From: Deinococcus radiodurans R1 = ATCC 13939 = DSM 20539
GTDB lineage: Bacteria > Deinococcota > Deinococci > Deinococcales > Deinococcaceae
Reading direction: 5' to 3'
Assembly (NCBI RefSeq): GCF_000008565.1
Contig: NC_001263.1
Coordinates: forward strand, 1,790,603 to 1,822,602
Length of the DNA: 32,000 bases
Both the position numbers and the translations under genes were made by a program. The notes under the pieces are model-generated. The model worked only from the letters and a program-made list of their open reading frames with translations, was not told the DNA's origin and searched no databases. Of the stretch, positions 2,411 through 31,294 are shown in pieces. The number at the start of each line of letters is the position of its first letter. Position 1 is the stretch's first letter.

Positions 2411-2986
2411 TCAGCGGCTCTGGATGTGGTACTCGGGGTTGGGAACGAAGCCCAGGGCGCTGCTCACGCGGTTGGTCATGTTGAACATGGCGATGACCTG
2501 CACCGCTTCCAGAATCGCCTCGTCGCTCAGGCCGGCGGCGCGCAGGGGTGCCAGGTCCGCTTCGGTCATCTCGGCGGGACGCAGCGTCAGCTTTTCGGCG
2601 TAGGCGCACATGGCCTGTTCGCGCTCCGACAATTCGGCCTGACGCCAGTTGACCGCCACGGCGTCGGCTTTCACGGCGTCGCCGGAAAACTCGCGCAGGG
2701 CGGCTCCGTGGCTGACCGCACAGTACACGCAGCGGTTGAGCCCGCTGACGACCACGGCGAGCAGTTCGCGCTCGGCATTGCTCAAGCCGCCTTCCTTGTT
2801 GACGAGCAGGTTGAAGTAGTTCCACCACGCCAGAAACTGCTCGCCGTTGAGCGCCTGCGCCCGGAACACGTTGGGCACGAAGCCCATGTTGGCCTCGGCC
2901 TTGGACCAGAGTTTTTTCACGCCTTCGTGGGCGTTGTCTTCGGTGGGAACGGCCAGGAAAGACAGCCGGGGTTGAGTTGTAGGCAT
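2411..2986 (-). CDS. AhpD-like / carboxymuconolactone decarboxylase family 'peroxidase-related enzyme'
   Basis: CxxC-type motif [11 protein letters not shown] in a CMD-like fold. I chose the start at M29 of the tracked ORF (ATG at 2986). A -10-like TATCCT (complement of 2993-2998) lies exactly 6 nt upstream, which suggests a leaderless mRNA. Confidence 0.7.
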
Positions 2987-3088
2987 GAGGAGAGGATAAC
3001 CCAGTGAGTTCACTTTCCTTTTGACAGTCTTCTGTCCCGCAGCCGTTGACACTGCCGCCTGCCCCGGCATCCGCGCTATCTTGCAGCC

Positions 3089-3136
3089 ATGTCCGCTCGC
3101 ACCCTCCGCCTGATCTGGTGGCCTCGCCTCACCTAG
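3089..3136 (+). promoter_or_regulatory. Candidate trp leader peptide ORF ([15 protein letters not shown]), tandem Trp codons
   Basis: 15-codon ORF with TGG-TGG at 3116-3121. TATCTT (3077-3082) lies 6 nt upstream of the ATG and there is no SD. A terminator hairpin follows, directly before trpG. Confidence 0.65.
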
Positions 3137-3163
3137 GCGGGTGACGTTGCGTCTTTTCTTCCC

Positions 3164-3200
3164 GCGCCTGGGTGAACTTCTCCGTTCACTGGGCGCTTTT
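3164..3200 (+). terminator. Attenuator-type intrinsic terminator in the trpG 5' leader
   Basis: GCGCC(3164-3168)..GTGAAC-ttctcc-GTTCAC..GGCGC(3192-3196) forms 5+6 bp with a small internal loop. TTTTCATTT follows. The structure ends about 15 nt before the trpG start codon. Confidence 0.6.
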
Positions 3201-3214
3201 CATTTGGAGTCTTC

Positions 3215-3820
3215 ATGTCTGATACCCCCCTGAGCCTGCTGCTGATCGACAATTACGACTCTTTTACCTACAACCTGGTGCAGTATTTCGGCGCTCTGGG
3301 CTGTGAGCTGACGGTGTGGCGCAACGACGCCTTTACGCTCGACGATGTGCGCCAGCTTGATCCCGACGCCATCGTGGTGTCGCCCGGCCCCTGCACGCCG
3401 CTCGAAGCGGGCCTGAGCGTGGACGTGGTGCGCGAACTCGGGCCGCAGTACCCGCTGCTCGGCGTGTGCCTGGGCCACCAAAGCATCGGGCAGGCGTTCG
3501 GGGCGCGGGTGGAGCGGGCGCAGCGGCCCGTCCACGGCAAGACGAGCGCGGTGCGGCACGGGAACACCGACCTCTTTGCCGGACTGCCGCAGGACGTGCG
3601 CGTGACCCGGTATCACTCACTGGTCGTGCGCGGGCTGCCGCCGGAGCTGGAAGCGACCGCCTGGAGCAGCGACCCCGAGGAAGAGGTCGTCATGGCGCTG
3701 CGCCACCGCGAATACCCCATCTACGGCGTGCAATTTCACCCCGAAAGCATCGAAACCCAGGAGGGCCTGCACATGCTGGAGAACTTTTTGCGCCTGGTAC
3801 GCGAGCGGAGGGCCGCGTGA
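3215..3820 (+). CDS. trpG: Anthranilate synthase component II (glutamine amidotransferase)
   Basis: 201 aa, class-I GATase. Motifs LLIDNYDSFTYNL, GVCLGHQSIG and GVQFHPES. GGAG SD upstream. Adjacent to trpD. Confidence 0.93.
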   Translation: MSDTPLSLLLIDNYDSFTYNLVQYFGALGCELTVWRNDAFTLDDVRQLDPDAIVVSPGPCTPLEAGLSVDVVRELGPQYPLLGVCLGHQSIGQAFGARVERAQRPVHGKTSAVRHGNTDLFAGLPQDVRVTRYHSLVVRGLPPELEATAWSSDPEEEVVMALRHREYPIYGVQFHPESIETQEGLHMLENFLRLVRERRAA

Positions 3821-4857
3821 CCGCTCCCACTGCTCAGTCCATGCAGGCCCAGCCCATTCACGCCCGGCTGATGAACGGCGAGGTGCTCAGTCAGGACGAC
3901 GCGACCGCCTTCATGCGTGAAGTCATGTCGGGGGACATGAGCGGCGTGCGGATGGCGGCGGCGCTCGCGGCCCTGCGGGTGCGCGGCGAAACGCCCGAGG
4001 AAATCGCCGGCTTTGCCCAGGCCATGCGCGAGAGCGCCGTCACGGTCAAGGTTCGCCCCCGCGACGTGCTGATGGACGTGGTGGGCACCGGGGGCGACGG
4101 GGCGCACACCTTCAACATCTCGACGACCACCGCCTTCGTGCTGGCGGGCGCAGGTGTACCCATCGCCAAGCACGGCAACCGCGCCGCGAGTTCGCGGGCC
4201 GGGAGCGCGGACGTGCTCGAAGCCCTGGGGGTCAACCTCGACGCCTCGCCCGAGGTGATTCAGGAAGCCATCGACACGCTCGGAGTGGGCTTCATGTTCG
4301 CCCGCAACTACCACCCCGCGCTGCGGCACGCCGCCCCGGTGCGCTCGGACCTCGCCGCCCGTACGGTGTTCAACATCCTGGGGCCGCTGTCCAACCCTGC
4401 CGGGGCCACCCACCTCGTCGTGGGCGTATTCCGCGCCGACCTGACGCGCACGCTCGCCGAGGCGCTGCGGCACCTGGGCGCGAAAGGGGCGACTGTGGTC
4501 TACGGCGACGGCCTCGACGAATTCACCGTCTGTGGCCCCAACACGGTCTCGGGCCTGCGAGATGGCGAAATTATTGACCGGACGATGCATCCCGAGGAAT
4601 TTGGTGTAGACCTGCACCCCAAAACGGCGATTGTGGGTGGCAGCCCCGCCGAGAATGCCGAAATCACCCACGCCCTGCTGACCGGCGGCGGCACCCCGGC
4701 GCAAAAGGACATCGTGGCGCTCAATGCCGGGGCCGCGCTGCGGACGGCGGGCCGGGTCGGGACTATTCGCGAAGGCGTGGAGCAGGCCCGCGAAGTCATG
4801 AAAGGCGGGCAAGGCTGGGAGATGCTGCAAAAGTACGGTGCGTTGACCAAGCGCTAG
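3817..4857 (+). CDS. trpD: Anthranilate phosphoribosyltransferase
   Basis: Motifs DVVGTGGDGAHTFNISTT, KHGNRAASSRAGSADVLEALG and NILGPLSNPA. The start is either the GTG at 3817, which overlaps the trpG stop (GTGA), or the in-frame ATG at 3841. The upstream part of the tracked ORF (3466-3816) overlaps trpG and is not coding. Confidence 0.92.
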   Translation: MTAPTAQSMQAQPIHARLMNGEVLSQDDATAFMREVMSGDMSGVRMAAALAALRVRGETPEEIAGFAQAMRESAVTVKVRPRDVLMDVVGTGGDGAHTFNISTTTAFVLAGAGVPIAKHGNRAASSRAGSADVLEALGVNLDASPEVIQEAIDTLGVGFMFARNYHPALRHAAPVRSDLAARTVFNILGPLSNPAGATHLVVGVFRADLTRTLAEALRHLGAKGATVVYGDGLDEFTVCGPNTVSGLRDGEIIDRTMHPEEFGVDLHPKTAIVGGSPAENAEITHALLTGGGTPAQKDIVALNAGAALRTAGRVGTIREGVEQAREVMKGGQGWEMLQKYGALTKR

Positions 4858-17066: not shown

Positions 17067-17110
17067 CCTGCCCCCCAGCCCCGGCCCCGGCCCGGCGCTA
17101 CAGTCCAGGC

Positions 17111-17173
17111 ATGTTCAGCGTGACCCGTGAGAAACCGGCCCCGGCGGGCCTTCTTCTTCGTCTGGGGCGTTGA
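17111..17173 (+). promoter_or_regulatory. Candidate leu leader peptide ORF ([20 protein letters not shown])
   Basis: 20-codon ORF with CTT-CTT-CTT-CGT-CTG (17150-17164). CTT is an atypical Leu codon in this GC3-rich genome. TACAGT (17099-17104) lies 6 nt upstream of the ATG and there is no SD. A terminator hairpin follows before leuC. Confidence 0.6.
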
Positions 17174-17201
17174 GCGCGAGTTTCCCAGCCGTTCTTCACG
17201 T

Positions 17202-17236
17202 GCCCCCCGCAGCCGAGTAGCTGAGGGGGCGTTTTT
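17202..17236 (+). terminator. Attenuator-type intrinsic terminator in the leuC 5' leader
   Basis: GCCCCC(17202-17207)-cg-CAGC ... GCTG-a-GGGGGC(17225-17230), followed by GTTTTTCG. It lies 32 nt upstream of the leuC ATG and its GGGGGAGG SD. Confidence 0.65.
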
Positions 17237-17267
17237 CGTCCGAAGGATTGATCTGGGGGAGGTCCAT

Positions 17268-22055: not shown

Positions 22056-22674
22056 ATGCCCACTGTTCACGTCTTTGCCCGTGACCACATCAACACCGAC
22101 GAAATCATTCCCGCCCGCCACCTGACCACCGACGTGGAATCGGAGCTGGCGAAGTACGCGATGGAGGACTACGACAAGGACTTCGTGCGGCGCGTGCAGC
22201 CCGGCGACATCATCGTGGCCGGGGCCGACTTCGGCTGCGGGTCGAGCCGTGAGCACGCCGTCTGGGCGCTGCGTGGCGCGGGCGTTTCGGCGGTCATCGC
22301 GCCCAACTTTGCCCGCATCTACTACCGCAACTCCATCAACAACGGCTTTCTGGCGCTGGAATGCGAGGGCATCACGGAGCTGTTTCAGGACGGCGAAGAA
22401 GCCGAACTCGACCTGAAGGGCGGCACCATTCGCAACCCGCGCACCGGGAAGGAACTGAGCTTCGTGCCGGTGCCGCAATTCGCGCTCGACGTGCAGAAGG
22501 CGGGCGGCTGGCTGGAATACATGAAGGCGGGCGAGGACGTGGAAGGCGAGCGGCTCGACAACGCGAGCACCTCGGCGGGTCACGGTCACGCGGGCACGCC
22601 GCTCGGCGACGACCCGGCCAAGGAAGACGGCCCCCGCCCCGAACAGGCCAGCGGCCACCAAAAGGAGGAGCACC

Positions 22675-22682
<8 letters not shown>
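22056..22682 (+). CDS. leuD: 3-isopropylmalate dehydratase small subunit with ~50-aa His/acidic C-terminal extension
   Basis: Motifs [24 protein letters not shown] and YRNSINNG. The core ends near residue 158. A low-complexity tail follows. Confidence 0.9.
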
Positions 22683-23733
<1,051 letters not shown>

Positions 23734-29025: not shown

Positions 29026-30447
29026 TCACAGCCCCCCCGCCGCCAGCTCCACCGCCCGCATCAGGGCCGCCGCCTTGTTGCGCGTTTCCTGCTCCTCCAG
29101 CTCGGGCACGCTGTCGGCGACCACACCCGCCCCGGCCTGGATGTGGACCTTGCCGTTCGCAATCACCATCGTCCGCAGGGTGAGCGCCATGTCGAGGCTG
29201 CCATCGAAAGCGACGTAGCCGAAGCAGCCGCCATACGGCCCCCGGCGCACGGGTTCGAGTTCGTCGATGATTTCCATCGCCCGGATTTTGGGTGCGCCGC
29301 TGACCGTGCCCATCGGTAGCACCGAGGCGAGCGCGTGCAGTGGCGTCTGCCCCTCCCGCAGTTCGCCGCGCACGCCCGAGACGATGTGCATGACGTGGCT
29401 GTAGCGCTCGATGGAAAAGGCGTTTTCGACCTTGACGGTGCCGTAAGCGCTCACCTTGCCGATGTCGTTGCGCCCGAGGTCCACCAGCATTAAGTGTTCG
29501 GCGCGCTCCTTTTCGTCGGCGAGCAGTTCGGCGGCGAGCGCGTCGTCCTCGGCCTCAGTCGCCCCGCGCTTGCGGGTGCCGGCAATCGGACGGGTGACCA
29601 CGCTCACGCCGTCGCTGCGCAGCAGGCTCTCGGGGCTGCTCGCCACCAGTGTCACCTCGCCCAGCGCCAGATAGCCGAGGTAGGGGCTGGGGTTCACCCG
29701 CCGCAGGGCGCGGTAGAGCGCGAAGGGGTGCAGGTCGCCCAGCTCGGCGCTGAAACGCTGCGAGGGCACGAACTGGAAAATGTCGCCCGCGTGGACATAC
29801 TCCTTGCCCCGGCGCACCGCCTCCATGTACTCCGCCGGCGTGAAGTTGCTGCGGAACTCGGGCGCGGCGGTGGGCGTTTGCCCCGGCACCTCCGGCAGCG
29901 GGCCGCGCAGCCGGGTGAGCAGGCGCTCCACCTCGGCGTCGGCCTGCGCCTGCTCCTCCGCAGCCGCCACCACCACCAGCCGGTGCTTGAGGTGGTCGAA
30001 AATCACCAGCCCACGCGGCGCCACGAACAGCGCGTCGGGCAGCTTCAGTTCATCGGGGTTGGCGTCGGGCAGCTTTTCGTAGGCGCGGATGATGTCGTAG
30101 GCCGCGTACCCCACTGCGCCGCCTACCAGCGCAGGCAATCCGGCGGGCACGTCCAGCGGGCGGGTCGTGACGCGGTAGAGCCGGGCGAGCGGGTCGGCTT
30201 CCTCGCCGTCGAAGTCACCGAATTGCCCGCTGCTCTGCACCCGTCCGGCGCAGGCGCGAAACGTGCCCTGCTCGCCCACGCCGATAAACGAGTAGCGCCC
30301 CAGCTTTTCGCCCGCTTCCACGCTTTCGAGCAAGAACGACACCGTTTCTCCCTGTGCGGCCTTGAGGTAAGCGGTGACGGGCGTGTCGAGGTCGGCATTG
30401 AGTTCATGGACGGCGAGACAGGTCGGGTGGGCAGAGGTCTGGGACAT
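29026..30447 (-). CDS. trpE: Anthranilate synthase component I
   Basis: 473 aa. Motifs LLESVE, GAVGYAAYD, IAGTRKRG, HLMLVDLGRNDIG and GAPKIRAMEIIDELE. AAGGAG SD upstream. Confidence 0.95.
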   Translation of the reverse strand: MSQTSAHPTCLAVHELNADLDTPVTAYLKAAQGETVSFLLESVEAGEKLGRYSFIGVGEQGTFRACAGRVQSSGQFGDFDGEEADPLARLYRVTTRPLDVPAGLPALVGGAVGYAAYDIIRAYEKLPDANPDELKLPDALFVAPRGLVIFDHLKHRLVVVAAAEEQAQADAEVERLLTRLRGPLPEVPGQTPTAAPEFRSNFTPAEYMEAVRRGKEYVHAGDIFQFVPSQRFSAELGDLHPFALYRALRRVNPSPYLGYLALGEVTLVASSPESLLRSDGVSVVTRPIAGTRKRGATEAEDDALAAELLADEKERAEHLMLVDLGRNDIGKVSAYGTVKVENAFSIERYSHVMHIVSGVRGELREGQTPLHALASVLPMGTVSGAPKIRAMEIIDELEPVRRGPYGGCFGYVAFDGSLDMALTLRTMVIANGKVHIQAGAGVVADSVPELEEQETRNKAAALMRAVELAAGGL

Positions 30448-30476
30448 GGGCAGGACTCCTTATGGACTGAGCGGGG

Positions 30477-30513
30477 CACAACAAAACGCCCCGGGCGCGG
30501 AAAGCCGGGGCGT
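30477..30513 (-). terminator. Attenuator-type intrinsic terminator in the trpE 5' leader
   Basis: Minus-strand RNA ACGCCCCGG-cuuuccgcgc-CCGGGGCGU is a 9-bp perfect stem, followed by UUUGUUGUG. It lies about 30 nt upstream of the trpE ATG. Confidence 0.7.
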
Positions 30514-30538
30514 GTGCGGAGATAAGAAAACGCGGCAC

Positions 30539-30586
30539 TCAGACCCAGCGGGAGCGGGGCCACCACGAAGTGCGGCGGGTCAACAT
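30539..30586 (-). promoter_or_regulatory. Candidate trp leader peptide ORF (MLTRRTSWWPRSRWV*)
   Basis: 15-codon ORF with tandem TGG-TGG and a third TGG. TACCTT (complement of 30593-30598) lies 6 nt upstream of the ATG and there is no SD. It shares WWPR and a GCGU-U-rich tract with the trpG leader. Confidence 0.65.
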
Positions 30587-30643
30587 GAGGGGAAGGTAGC
30601 GCGGGGAAGGGCGGCGGCGGGCGGGGTGTCTAGCAGAGGTCGC

Positions 30644-31294
30644 TTAGCGCAGCGCCACCCAGCCCAGCGCCAGCAGCAGCGCGGCACCGATGCCCAGCAC
30701 GCTCAGGGCCTGCACGCGGGTCTTTTTCAGGAACAGCAGCACGCCGATGCCGGTGAGGGCCACCACCGTCAGAAACACGCCGCTGAGGTCAATCACCCAT
30801 TTCCACGCGCCGGGGGCGTCGCGGCCCTTGTGCAGGTCGTTGAGAACCGCTACCGCGCCCTGTTGCTGGATGTCCACCGTATACTTGCCGGTCTGCGTGT
30901 CGATGACTGCGTCGGCGCTGTAGCCGGGGGCCAGAAAGGACACGCTCGCCTCGGTGCCGTCCACCCGGGGGCTGTCGGCGTGCCCGTGCAGGTTTTGCTG
31001 CTCACGGAGGGCCTCGGCGGTGGTGAGCCAGTTGACCTCGCCGCCCTTGATCCAGCCGCCCGGCAGCGTGCCCGTCACCTTCTGCTCGACTTCCTGCGTG
31101 CCGAACACCCAATCGGGATGGTTGAGGGTCACGCCGCTCAGCGCAAAAAACAGCACCGCAAGCAGGCTGATCATGGAGGTGTAGGTGTGCAGCCAGCGCA
31201 GCCACTTGTTCGCCTGCGCCTTAGCATTGGGGGCCTTAGCGTTGGGGCGGCGGGCCGGGGCCACGTCCCGCTCAGGCCTTGCCGAAGCTGACAT
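30644..31294 (-). CDS. PepSY-associated TM helix family membrane protein
   Basis: WLRWLHTYTSMISLLAVLFFALSGVTLNHPDW is typical of PepSY_TM-like proteins. A second TM pair lies at the C-terminus. It overlaps the upstream gene's 3' end by 23 nt, so the start is uncertain. Confidence 0.7.
   Translation of the reverse strand: MSASARPERDVAPARRPNAKAPNAKAQANKWLRWLHTYTSMISLLAVLFFALSGVTLNHPDWVFGTQEVEQKVTGTLPGGWIKGGEVNWLTTAEALREQQNLHGHADSPRVDGTEASVSFLAPGYSADAVIDTQTGKYTVDIQQQGAVAVLNDLHKGRDAPGAWKWVIDLSGVFLTVVALTGIGVLLFLKKTRVQALSVLGIGAALLLALGWVALR

What the first reader, a model, noticed from the sequence alone, without database searches (positions are those of the whole stretch)
3073..3214. Tandem-Trp leader peptide plus terminator: candidate ribosome-mediated attenuator in front of trpG-trpD
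- A 15-codon ORF (3089-3136, [15 protein letters not shown]) has adjacent TGG-TGG codons.
- It is followed by a 5+6-bp hairpin (3164-3196) with a U-run that ends about 15 nt before trpG.
- The segment around the leader stop codon (CCTAGGCGGG, 3131-3140) can pair with the 5' arm region of the terminator (CCCGCGCCTGGG, 3161-3172). That gives a plausible antiterminator whose availability would depend on ribosome position.
- This is the logic of the classic trp attenuator, here on a fragment (trpGD) of a dispersed trp regulon in a Deinococcus-type genome.
- I do not recall this being described for Deinococcus.
Basis: partly seen in the sequence, partly recalled or inferred. Interest (0 to 1): 0.75.

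Follow-up and report, generated by a model that had tools for sequence, protein, structure and literature searches.

The report
Tryptophan-sensing leader attenuator before trpGD
A 15-codon mini-gene with two adjacent tryptophan codons, followed by switchable RNA hairpins, sits in front of the Deinococcus radiodurans trpG-trpD genes and most likely turns them down when tryptophan is plentiful; this is the classic attenuation mechanism, and it has already been predicted for Deinococcus.

Summary
The [18 protein letters not shown] lies at 3089-3136. A 5+7 bp GC hairpin (3164-3196) with UUUUCAUUU follows, and trpG starts at 3215.

The window is Deinococcus radiodurans. I collected 13 homologous leaders from Deinococcus and Deinobacterium. 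All have:
- a GCGCTAnnnT -10 box 6-7 nt before the ATG, implying a leaderless leader ORF;
- tandem or triple Trp codons;
- a strong terminator.

Three mutually exclusive helices (1:2, 2:3 antiterminator, 3:4 terminator) are conserved with compensatory changes. The antiterminator strand overlaps the leader stop codon. A ribosome at the stop codon would therefore mask it, and one stalled at the Trp codons would leave it free.

A covariance model built only from other species' trpE leaders hits exactly two places in the window. One is this site; the other is a second copy before trpE (30477-30603, minus strand). The trpGD copy looks like a duplicate of the trpE leader. A TGG-to-TAG change shortened its peptide, with compensating changes in helices 1:2 and 2:3.

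The mechanism is supported. The novelty claim is not: de Groot et al. 2014 predicted a leaderless trpEGD leader peptide in D. deserti, and Merino et al. 2008 is cited for Trp attenuators in Deinococcus. Nothing has been shown experimentally.

The parts
3073..3082 (+). Conserved GCGC plus a -10-like box, TATCTT (3077-3082), 6 nt upstream of the leader ATG. The inferred promoter would start transcription at or 1 nt before the ATG, giving a leaderless leader mRNA.
   Evidence: GCGCTAnnnT (GCCTAnnnT in L201) lies 6-7 nt before the ATG in all 13 leaders. In D. deserti the -10 motif sits directly upstream of leaderless start codons, and the trpEGD leader TSS is at -1 (PMC4007540). No TSS data exist for this window.
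3089..3136 (+). Leader [18 protein letters not shown], with no Shine-Dalgarno sequence upstream.
   Evidence: Frame and length are conserved in the homologues (13-16 codons in 11 further leaders, 17 in Deinobacterium L202, 30 in D. peraridilitoris L201), and indels come in multiples of 3.
3116..3121 (+). Tandem Trp codons UGG-UGG, the inferred sensing site where the ribosome stalls when charged tRNA-Trp is scarce.
   Evidence: WW or WWW is present in 13 of 13 leaders.
3121..3126 (+). Segment 1, the 5' strand of the 1:2 hairpin. It begins at the last base of the second Trp codon.
   Evidence: RNAalifold predicts columns 15-20 pairing with 27-32 on its own. The helix is 93.3% paired with 2 compensatory pairs.
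3128..3142 (+). Segment 2 (CUCACCUAGGCGGGU), which spans the leader stop codon at 3134-3136. It pairs either with segment 1 or with segment 3 (the antiterminator).
   Evidence: Duplex dG is -24.5 kcal/mol against -14.5 +/- 3.0 for shuffles. The antiterminator columns are 84.2% paired, with 6 pairs changed on both sides and 0 of 500 shuffles reaching the score.
3161..3177 (+). Segment 3. It is both the 3' strand of the antiterminator (3161-3176) and the 5' arm of the terminator (3164-3177).
3184..3196 (+). Segment 4, the 3' arm of the terminator hairpin.
   Evidence: The terminator helix is 90.4% paired with 3 compensatory pairs.
3197..3205 (+). U-rich tract UUUUCAUUU, the inferred termination point.
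   Evidence: A T-rich tail follows the hairpin in all 13 leaders.
3206..3209 (+). GGAG, the Shine-Dalgarno sequence of trpG. It lies outside the hairpin.
3215..3820 (+). trpG, anthranilate synthase component II.
   Evidence: NCBIfam TIGR00566, 218 bits. The protein matches D. radiodurans AAF11321.1 exactly.
3817..4857 (+). trpD, anthranilate phosphoribosyltransferase. Its start overlaps the trpG stop (GTGA).
   Evidence: NCBIfam TIGR01245, 441 bits; sequence.
30477..30603 (-). Paralogous Trp leader in front of trpE. It has a -10-like TACCTT (30598-30593), the ORF MLTRRTSWWPRSRWV* (30586-30539), a hairpin (30513-30486) and UUUGUUGUG. The trpE ATG is at 30447.
   Evidence: Covariance-model hit of 34.5 bits, E=2.9e-7.

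Best explanation
This is a ribosome-mediated (leader-peptide) transcription attenuator. It makes expression of D. radiodurans trpG-trpD depend on the supply of charged tRNA-Trp.

**Start of the transcript.** Transcription starts at or 1 nt before the leader ATG, from the TATCTT -10 box. The 15-codon leader ORF would then be translated as a leaderless mRNA (inferred).

**When Trp-tRNA is plentiful.** The ribosome runs to the UAG stop codon at 3134-3136. There it covers segment 2 (3128-3142). After release, segment 2 pairs with segment 1. Segment 3 is left to pair with segment 4, forming the terminator hairpin (3164-3196). RNA polymerase stops in the U tract at 3197-3205, about 10 nt before trpG.

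**When Trp-tRNA is scarce.** The ribosome stalls with UGG 3116-3118 or 3119-3121 in its A site. It then covers segment 1 and reaches only to about 3128-3131. Segment 2 stays free to pair with segment 3 as soon as segment 3 is made. The terminator cannot form, and polymerase reads into trpGD.

**Shown by computation:** the sequence elements, their conservation and covariation, their mutual exclusivity, and their spacing.

**Inferred, not shown:** the transcription start, translation of the ORF, stalling, and Trp-dependent readthrough.

**Origin.** The element is a duplicate of the ancestral trpE leader. It came to sit before trpGD when the trpE-trpG-trpD operon was split in the radiodurans, wulumuqiensis and reticulitermitis lineage.
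For: - **Genes and anatomy.** ORF, hairpin, U tract and trpGD are as described.
- **Homologues.** Leaders with WW or WWW were found before trpG in D. wulumuqiensis and D. reticulitermitis. They were found before trpE in D. reticulitermitis, Deinococcus sp. Leaf326, D. aluminii, D. taeanensis, D. puniceus, D. peraridilitoris, Deinobacterium chartae and two metagenome contigs. One more lies before trpE in this window.
- **Terminators.** All 13 leaders have a hairpin of -18 to -28 kcal/mol followed by a T-rich tail.
- **Covariation, terminator (3:4).** 90.4% of cells paired; slid controls give 33-49%.
- **Covariation, antiterminator (2:3).** 84.2% paired, 6 pairs changed on both sides, 0 of 500 shuffles reach the score, slid controls at most 55%.
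- **Covariation, helix 1:2.** 93.3% paired, slid controls at most 60%. RNAalifold predicts 1:2 and 3:4 independently.
- **Geometry.** In all 13 leaders segment 2 starts 8-14 nt after the first base of the last Trp codon and overlaps or abuts the stop codon.
- **Constrained folding.** With a ribosome mask at a Trp codon, the nascent RNA forms 2:3 (-17.7 to -23.8 kcal/mol). With a mask at the stop codon, only -4.7 kcal/mol of structure remains and the terminator forms.
- **Homology test.** A covariance model built from 7 trpE leaders of other species, with no window sequence, hits only 3072-3207 (34.9 bits, E=2.3e-7) and 30477-30603 (34.5 bits) in the window. It hits nothing at the trpG loci of 80 non-Deinococcus genomes.
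Against: - No experimental data exist for this locus: no TSS, no 3' ends, no Trp response.
- The single-sequence fold z-score is only -1.67.
- With no ribosome on the RNA, and before segment 4 is made, the minimum-energy fold of the nascent RNA is already the antiterminator, not 1:2. An untranslated leader might therefore read through rather than terminate, unlike E. coli.
- At equilibrium the terminator is slightly more stable than the antiterminator even with a stalled ribosome (-26.9 against -23.8 kcal/mol). The switch must therefore be kinetic.
- The covariation rests on only 12 related sequences, and I derived the 2:3 helix from these same sequences.
- A ribosome stalled at the second Trp codon would cover the first 3-4 nt of segment 2.
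Confidence: 0.85

Rival explanations
1. The attenuator is real, but the leader peptide is translated from a leadered transcript. The TSS would lie further upstream, and initiation would not occur at a 5'-terminal AUG.
For: - TTGACA hexamers lie at 3021-3026 and 3046-3051.
- No TSS data exist for D. radiodurans at this site.
- The sigma-70 scan found no canonical promoter at all.
Against: - There is no Shine-Dalgarno-like sequence before the ATG (the bases are GCAGCC).
- A TAnnnT box lies 6-7 nt before the ATG in 13 of 13 leaders, whereas sequence further upstream is not conserved.
- The spacer from TTGACA to TATCTT is 25 nt, too long for a -35/-10 pair.
- In D. deserti the homologous-type trpEGD leader has its TSS at -1, and no -35 motif is general (PMC4007540).
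Confidence: 0.08
2. The small ORF and hairpin regulate trpG at the level of translation, by ribosome-binding-site occlusion or reinitiation, rather than by transcription termination. The leaderless poly-Cys short ORFs of mycobacteria work this way.
For: - Leaderless sensory short ORFs that act translationally are documented in mycobacteria (bioRxiv 10.1101/834739).
- The hairpin ends only 10 nt before the trpG Shine-Dalgarno sequence.
Against: - The trpG Shine-Dalgarno sequence (3206-3209) and ATG lie outside every conserved helix.
- All 13 hairpins are followed by a T-rich tail, typical of intrinsic terminators.
- The leader stop is 78 nt from the trpG ATG, too far for coupling.
- In other species the terminator lies 13-80 nt from the start codon of the downstream gene (15-20 nt in this window and its two closest relatives), so no fixed relation to the ribosome-binding site exists.
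Confidence: 0.04
3. The terminator is controlled by a trans factor instead of the ribosome: a T-box-like tRNA sensor, a TRAP-like RNA-binding protein, or a Trp riboswitch. The WW ORF would then be incidental.
For: Other phyla regulate trp genes this way (established knowledge: T-box in Firmicutes, TRAP in Bacillus).
Against: - Rfam 15 gives no T-box or riboswitch hit even at E<=10.
- The leader contains only two (G/U)AG triplets, so there is no TRAP site.
- Trp codons are retained in 13 of 13 leaders, with reading frame and spacing to segment 2 conserved.
Confidence: 0.02
4. Chance or unregulated: a spurious short ORF next to an ordinary hairpin with no switching function.
For: Single-sequence statistics are weak.
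Against: - There is no co-directional upstream gene in the window for the hairpin to terminate.
- The element is conserved, with compensatory changes, across Deinococcus and Deinobacterium.
- Both WW short ORFs behind -10 boxes in the window precede trp genes.
Confidence: 0.01

Closest known systems
Predicted leaderless leader peptide of the Deinococcus deserti trpEGD mRNA (de Groot et al. 2014, PMC4007540), one of 14 putative attenuation leader peptides in that species
   Same: - Same genus, same pathway and the same proposed mechanism.
- The start codon is at the 5' end of the transcript, directly behind a -10 motif (TSS at -1).
- The trpE-type leaders of 9 other Deinococcaceae collected here are clearly homologous to the window's element.
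   Different: - The window's copy precedes trpGD, not trpE, in a lineage where the operon is split.
- Its peptide is truncated by a TGG-to-TAG change.
- I could not see the D. deserti sequence itself. Table S9 is not held and no D. deserti locus could be fetched.
Escherichia coli trpL attenuator (Yanofsky 1981; Rfam Trp_leader RF00513)
   Same: - A short ORF of about 14-15 codons with two adjacent Trp codons.
- The 1:2, 2:3 and 3:4 alternative helices.
- An intrinsic terminator just before the first structural gene.
- A stop codon placed so that a terminating ribosome masks segment 2.
   Different: - No Rfam match, so no detectable sequence or structure homology.
- The leader ORF has no Shine-Dalgarno sequence and is apparently leaderless.
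- Segment 2 actually spans the stop codon.
- The no-ribosome nascent fold favours 2:3.
- The genome carries two copies, one before trpE and one before trpGD.
Actinobacterial trp leader attenuators (Streptomyces venezuelae trpE, Corynebacterium glutamicum trp; cited in PMC4833913)
   Same: High-GC organisms, a Trp-rich leader peptide before trpE, and a terminator/antiterminator switch. Two actinobacteria-like metagenome contigs (L152, L188) even share the GCGCTAnnnT-N6-ATG...TGGTGGCC layout.
   Different: A different phylum. The covariance model scores those contigs weakly (E=0.006 and 0.35). Homology is not established.
Mycobacterial leaderless poly-Cys short-ORF attenuators (Canestrari et al., bioRxiv 10.1101/834739)
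   Same: A leaderless sensory short ORF enriched in codons for the pathway's end product controls the downstream biosynthetic genes through ribosome stalling.
   Different: Those act on translation by unmasking the ribosome-binding site, and sense Cys. This one has a terminator with a U tract and senses Trp.
Sinorhizobium meliloti trpL / rnTrpL / peTrpL (PMC6614838, PMC7968998)
   Same: A Trp attenuator in a genome with dispersed trp operons. The terminated leader RNA is a discrete small transcript.
   Different: In Sinorhizobium only trpE(G) has the attenuator, and the released RNA regulates the other trp operon in trans. Here the second operon carries its own copy. No trans function has been tested here.

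Membership tests
Ribosome-mediated Trp leader-peptide transcription attenuator (mechanistic class) | A short ORF with tandem Trp codons immediately upstream of Trp biosynthesis genes | tested here: met
   ORF at 3089-3136 with UGG UGG at 3116-3121, and trpG at 3215. WW or WWW is present in 13 of 13 homologues.
Ribosome-mediated Trp leader-peptide transcription attenuator (mechanistic class) | An intrinsic terminator (GC hairpin plus U tract) between the leader ORF and the first structural gene | tested here: met
   Hairpin at 3164-3196, -18.5 kcal/mol, followed by UUUUCAUUU. The helix is 90.4% paired with compensatory changes.
Ribosome-mediated Trp leader-peptide transcription attenuator (mechanistic class) | An antiterminator helix that shares a strand with the terminator and so excludes it | tested here: met
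   3128-3142 pairs with 3161-3176 at -24.5 kcal/mol, against -14.5 +/- 3.0 for shuffles. 84.2% paired, 6 compensatory pairs, 0 of 500 shuffles.
Ribosome-mediated Trp leader-peptide transcription attenuator (mechanistic class) | A 1:2 (anti-antiterminator) helix whose 5' strand lies at or next to the regulatory codons | tested here: met
   RNAalifold predicts it unprompted. 93.3% paired with 2 compensatory pairs. Caveat: the single-sequence nascent fold without a ribosome prefers 2:3.
Ribosome-mediated Trp leader-peptide transcription attenuator (mechanistic class) | Spacing such that a ribosome stalled at the Trp codons frees segment 2, and one at the stop codon masks it | tested here: met
   Segment 2 starts 8-14 nt after the last Trp codon's first base and overlaps or abuts the stop codon in 13 of 13 leaders. 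Masked folds agree. The assumed footprint, A-site first base +12, comes from general knowledge.
Ribosome-mediated Trp leader-peptide transcription attenuator (mechanistic class) | Trp- or tRNA-Trp-dependent termination and readthrough in vivo or in vitro | not testable with these tools
   Needs Term-seq, northern blots or reporter assays.
Rfam Trp_leader (RF00513) and other curated leader, T-box or riboswitch families | A covariance-model score at or near the gathering threshold | tested here: not met
   No relevant hit at E<=10 in 2500-4000 or 30300-30800, and none at gathering score in the whole window.
Deinococcaceae leaderless Trp leader (de Groot 2014 type; trpE-type leaders collected here) | Sequence and structure homology to the trpE leaders of other Deinococcus and Deinobacterium | tested here: met
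   Model R1, built without any window sequence, scores 34.9 bits with E=2.3e-7 at 3072-3207. It is specific to Deinococcaceae among the 92 loci searched.
Deinococcaceae leaderless Trp leader (de Groot 2014 type; trpE-type leaders collected here) | The start codon at the transcript's 5' end, with a -10 box directly upstream and no Shine-Dalgarno sequence | tested here: inconclusive
   TATCTT at 3077-3082 lies 6 nt before the ATG, this layout is conserved in 13 of 13 leaders, and no Shine-Dalgarno sequence is present. The TSS itself cannot be determined here; it was measured only in D. deserti.
TRAP-dependent trp attenuation (Bacillus type) | About 9-11 (G/U)AG repeats in the leader | tested here: not met
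   Only 2 such triplets occur in 3089-3214.

The most novel reading that the evidence does not exclude
**Claim 1 (evolution).** The trpGD leader is a lineage-specific duplicate of the trpE leader, made when the trpE-G-D operon split. It was re-tuned by a single TGG-to-TAG change that moved the stop codon into segment 2. Matching changes followed in segment 1 (C to U) and segment 3 (C to U, A to G).

**Claim 2 (mechanism).** Both copies work on leaderless mRNA. Ribosome-polymerase coupling for attenuation would then be set up by 70S loading on a 5'-terminal AUG, without a Shine-Dalgarno sequence.

**Why it would matter.** D. radiodurans would offer a natural paired system for studying how attenuation works and evolves on leaderless transcripts. 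The two roughly 115-nt terminated leader RNAs or their peptides might also act in trans, as rnTrpL and peTrpL do in Sinorhizobium.
Probability: 0.5. Interest if true: 0.4.

Novelty: new member of a known kind. Interest (0 to 1): 0.3.

Why it matters
- It explains how D. radiodurans can co-regulate trpE and trpGD, which lie about 26 kb apart on opposite strands: each carries its own copy of the same Trp-sensing leader.
- It adds a well-documented example of classical attenuation operating, most likely, on a leaderless mRNA.
- It gives an unusually clear case of three interlocked helices co-evolving after a stop-codon shift.
- No Rfam family covers these Deinococcaceae leaders, so the alignment and model could seed one.
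- It does not open a new mechanism. The idea was already published for the genus as a prediction.

Tried and rejected
- **Genome scan wasted.** These loci later served as negative controls.
- **Rfam.** Scans gave nothing relevant, so T-box, riboswitch and Trp_leader membership were rejected.
- **TRAP.** Rejected from the triplet count.
- **Sigma-70 promoter scan.** Found nothing. Deinococcus promoters lack a general -35 motif, so this is uninformative.
- **Metagenome pattern scan.** It gave 111 matches, of which only L142 and L195 are true Deinococcus trpE leaders. L152 and L188 look like actinobacterial Trp leaders. The rest are chance matches, many inside a conserved ...[22 protein letters not shown]... 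protein N-terminus.
- **Papers not available.** Supplementary Table S9 of de Groot 2014, Merino et al. 2008 and Xie et al. 2003 are not held. I could not check whether the D. radiodurans trpGD leader itself was listed there.
- **D. deserti DNA.** It could not be fetched, because its proteins did not appear by name among the 120 listed hits.
- **D. geothermalis and D. hopiensis.** L083 and L084 were fetched with too short a flank to reach upstream of trpE.
Full report
**Observation.**
- The ORF at 3089-3136 encodes [15 protein letters not shown], with UGG-UGG at 3116-3121.
- Positions 3164-3196 fold into a hairpin, GCGCC-UG-GGUGAAC-[UUCUCC]-GUUCACU-G-GGCGC. It has 5+7 bp at -18.5 kcal/mol, and UUUUCAUUU follows at 3197-3205.
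- GGAG lies at 3206-3209, and the next ATG (3215) opens trpG. trpD overlaps the trpG stop at 3817.
- The upstream gene (2411-2986, minus strand) is a divergent AhpD/CMD-type peroxidase-related gene. The hairpin therefore terminates no upstream gene.
- The TrpG and TrpE proteins match Deinococcus radiodurans AAF11321.1 and AAF11345.1 exactly.
- Taken alone, the site is statistically unremarkable. The fold z-score is -1.67, and the terminator-pattern scan found 3 sites against 2.2 expected.

**Related sequences.**
The single genome-collection scan was lost to an over-conserved peptide motif. I therefore reached orthologues through protein searches and exact-protein contig look-ups, plus one metagenome DNA-pattern scan.
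- D. wulumuqiensis and D. reticulitermitis have the same arrangement as the window. Their leaders are MTARNAPTIWWPSLA* and MTARRVRWWPSFA*, each followed by a hairpin and then trpG.
- In most other Deinococcus the genes form a trpE-(small gene)-trpG-trpD operon, and the same kind of leader sits before trpE:

| Source | Leader peptide |
|---|---|
| Deinococcus sp. Leaf326 | MTVNAAWWWPSFAWD* |
| D. aluminii | MTVNGAMMWWPGFAWA* |
| D. taeanensis | MTVYGAWWWPSQAWV* |
| D. puniceus | MTVLGAWWWPSSAWA* |
| Metagenome contig L142 | MTVSGAWWWPRNSWV* |
| Metagenome contig L195 | MTVTGAWWWPSSAWA* |
| D. peraridilitoris | 30 aa ending RPWWWPS* |
| Deinobacterium chartae | MNAYVTYWWWQPEKPRV* |

- A Trueperaceae genome shows no tandem-Trp leader or terminator.
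- The window itself holds trpE on the minus strand (29026-30447) with its own leader, MLTRRTSWWPRSRWV* (30586-30539).
- D. reticulitermitis likewise has a second leader before its separate trpE.
- So the lineage with a split operon carries two copies.

**Anatomy shared by all 13 leaders.**
- Each has GCGCTAnnnT (GCCTAnnnT in D. peraridilitoris) with the TAnnnT box 6-7 nt before the ATG, and no Shine-Dalgarno sequence.
- In D. deserti the -10 motif lies directly before leaderless start codons, no general -35 exists, and the trpEGD leader peptide's TSS is at -1 (PMC4007540). I infer that the leader ORF here is translated from a leaderless mRNA. This is not shown for D. radiodurans.
- Every leader has a terminator hairpin of -18 to -28 kcal/mol with a T-rich tail.
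- Leader length is nearly constant, at 13-16 codons in 11 of 13.
- Length differences are whole codons, as expected if the ORF is read.

**Alternative helices.**
I aligned 12 leaders from the Trp codons to the U tract (A1).
- RNAalifold on its own predicts two helices. One is a hairpin just after the Trp codons (columns 15-20 with 27-32; in the window, 3121-3126 with 3133-3138). The other is the terminator.
- The named structures were then counted on the same alignment:

| Helix | Cells paired | Pairs changed on both sides | Slid controls |
|---|---|---|---|
| Terminator (3:4) | 90.4% | 3 | 33-49% |
| Antiterminator (2:3; columns 22-31 with 71-80, window 3128-3137 with 3167-3176) | 84.2% | 6 | at most 55% |
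| Helix 1:2 | 93.3% | 2 | at most 60% |

- For the antiterminator, 0 of 500 shuffles reach the covariation score.
- In the window the full antiterminator duplex is 3128-3142 with 3161-3176, at -24.5 kcal/mol. Shuffles give -14.5 +/- 3.0.
- Caveats: the set is small and related, and I derived the 2:3 helix from these sequences.

**Geometry and mechanism.**
- In all 13 leaders segment 2 begins 8-14 nt after the first base of the last Trp codon and overlaps or abuts the stop codon.
- I assumed that a ribosome protects about 12 nt beyond the first base of its A-site codon (general knowledge). I then folded the nascent RNA with that stretch masked.
- With the A site on a Trp codon and polymerase not yet past segment 4, the antiterminator forms (-23.8 or -17.7 kcal/mol).
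- With the A site on the stop codon, segment 2 is masked, almost no structure remains (-4.7 kcal/mol), and the terminator forms.
- This is the classical logic, and the same behaviour appears in the four other leaders tested.
- Two departures are worth noting. Without any ribosome the nascent minimum-energy fold is already the antiterminator. At equilibrium the terminator slightly beats the antiterminator. Control must therefore be kinetic, and an untranslated leader may read through.

**Homology and origin.**
- A covariance model built from seven trpE leaders of other species, with no window sequence (A2 and R1), finds exactly two significant matches in the 32-kb window. They are 3072-3207 (34.9 bits, E=2.3e-7) and 30477-30603 on the minus strand (34.5 bits, E=2.9e-7).
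- In 92 other loci the model hits only Deinococcaceae leaders. It hits nothing at the trpG loci of 80 genomes from other phyla.
- The trpG-type leaders differ from the trpE type by TGG-to-TAG at the codon that is the last Trp in the trpE type...TTC GCC TGG G.. becomes ...TTC GCC TAG G...
- That same base (column 29) pairs with column 73 in the antiterminator. There the pair is G-C in 9 sequences and A-U in the 3 trpG-type sequences.
- It also pairs with column 18 in helix 1:2, which is C-G in 9 sequences and U-A in 2.
- The simplest reading is that the trpE leader and its promoter were duplicated in front of trpGD when the operon split, and the three helices then co-adjusted. This is inference.

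**Rivals.**
- T-box, riboswitch and proteobacterial Trp_leader membership are not supported by Rfam.
- A TRAP site is absent.
- Translational control is unlikely. The trpG Shine-Dalgarno sequence lies outside all helices, the hairpins carry U tracts, and the distance from terminator to start codon varies between species.
- Chance is excluded by conservation. In addition, the only two WW short ORFs behind -10 boxes in the window both precede trp genes.

**What is known already.**
- De Groot et al. 2014 predicted 14 leaderless leader peptides for attenuation in D. deserti, including one on trpEGD mRNA.
- Melior et al. 2021 state that trpL-type attenuators occur in Deinococcus, citing Merino, Jensen and Yanofsky 2008. 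I could not read that review.
- Leaderless sensory short ORFs are experimentally established in mycobacteria, where they act on translation.
- I found no paper reporting an experimental test in Deinococcus, and no Rfam family covers these leaders.
- The finding is therefore a sound, well-supported member of a known kind. It has modest added value: the paired copies, the stop-codon shift with compensation, and three-helix covariation evidence.

**Verdict.**
- The mechanistic interpretation is supported, at about 0.85 confidence.
- The novelty claim is not supported.
- Interest is about 0.3.

Noticed in passing
window 30477-30603 (minus strand), upstream of trpE 29026-30447: A second, paralogous Trp leader sits in the same window. 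It has a -10-like TACCTT, the ORF MLTRRTSWWPRSRWV*, the hairpin ACGCCCCGG...CCGGGGCGU, and UUUGUUGUG. trpE and trpGD thus each carry their own attenuator, about 26 kb apart on opposite strands.
   Followed up: yes
window 17095-17240 (+), upstream of leuC (true ATG 17268): A third candidate leaderless attenuator. It has GCGCTACAGT, an ATG at 17111, the peptide [20 protein letters not shown] (CTT CTT CTT CGT CTG), the hairpin GCCCCCCGCAGC-CGAGUA-GCUGAGGGGGC plus GUUUUUCG, then the Shine-Dalgarno sequence GGGGGAGG and an aconitase-family leuC. leuD (22056-22682) and leuB (22675-23733) lie further downstream. The mechanical ORF list starts leuC too early, at 17127.
   Followed up: partly
L081 428-1243 and L082 524-1342, compared with window ~2987-3010: D. 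wulumuqiensis and D. reticulitermitis carry a gene of about 271 aa with no Pfam hit, between the CMD/AhpD-like gene and the trpG leader. It is absent from the D. radiodurans window. Similarity between the window and D. wulumuqiensis resumes about 80 nt upstream of the leader ATG.
   Followed up: no
L083, L084, L086, L201, L202 (between trpE and trpG): In many Deinococcaceae a small unrelated gene is wedged between trpE and trpG. It is a PF05635 '23S rRNA-intervening-sequence' protein in D. geothermalis and D. aluminii, a tautomerase (PF14552) in D. hopiensis and D. peraridilitoris, and a chorismate mutase (CM_2) in Deinobacterium chartae.
   Followed up: no
L152 548-662 and L188 59-184 (metagenome contigs): Two high-GC, actinobacteria-like contigs have the same layout: GCGCTAnnnT, 6-7 nt, an ATG, a WW leader (MTARFSWWPSTRRP*, MSAHLTCWWPA*) and a GC hairpin. 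They score only weakly with the Deinococcus model (E=0.006 and 0.35). This may be convergent leaderless Trp leaders or distant homology.
   Followed up: partly
L203 1385-1500 (Trueperaceae MAG, upstream of trpE): There is no tandem-Trp leader and no U-tract terminator. Instead a 30-codon ORF (MNATSSWTGVLGRWRRTSATDPCRSGTARP*) sits behind a TATACT box, with two isolated Trp codons and the hairpin CCGUGCCG-AUC-CGGCACGG. Regulation there may differ.
   Followed up: no
about 30 metagenome loci among L089-L199 (e.g. L089, L092, L093): The search pattern also matched the start of a conserved protein (MS.[31 protein letters not shown]...). Its ATG lies right behind a GCGCTA...-type box, which suggests leaderless gene starts in other soil bacteria. 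These matches are chance with respect to the Trp leader.
   Followed up: no
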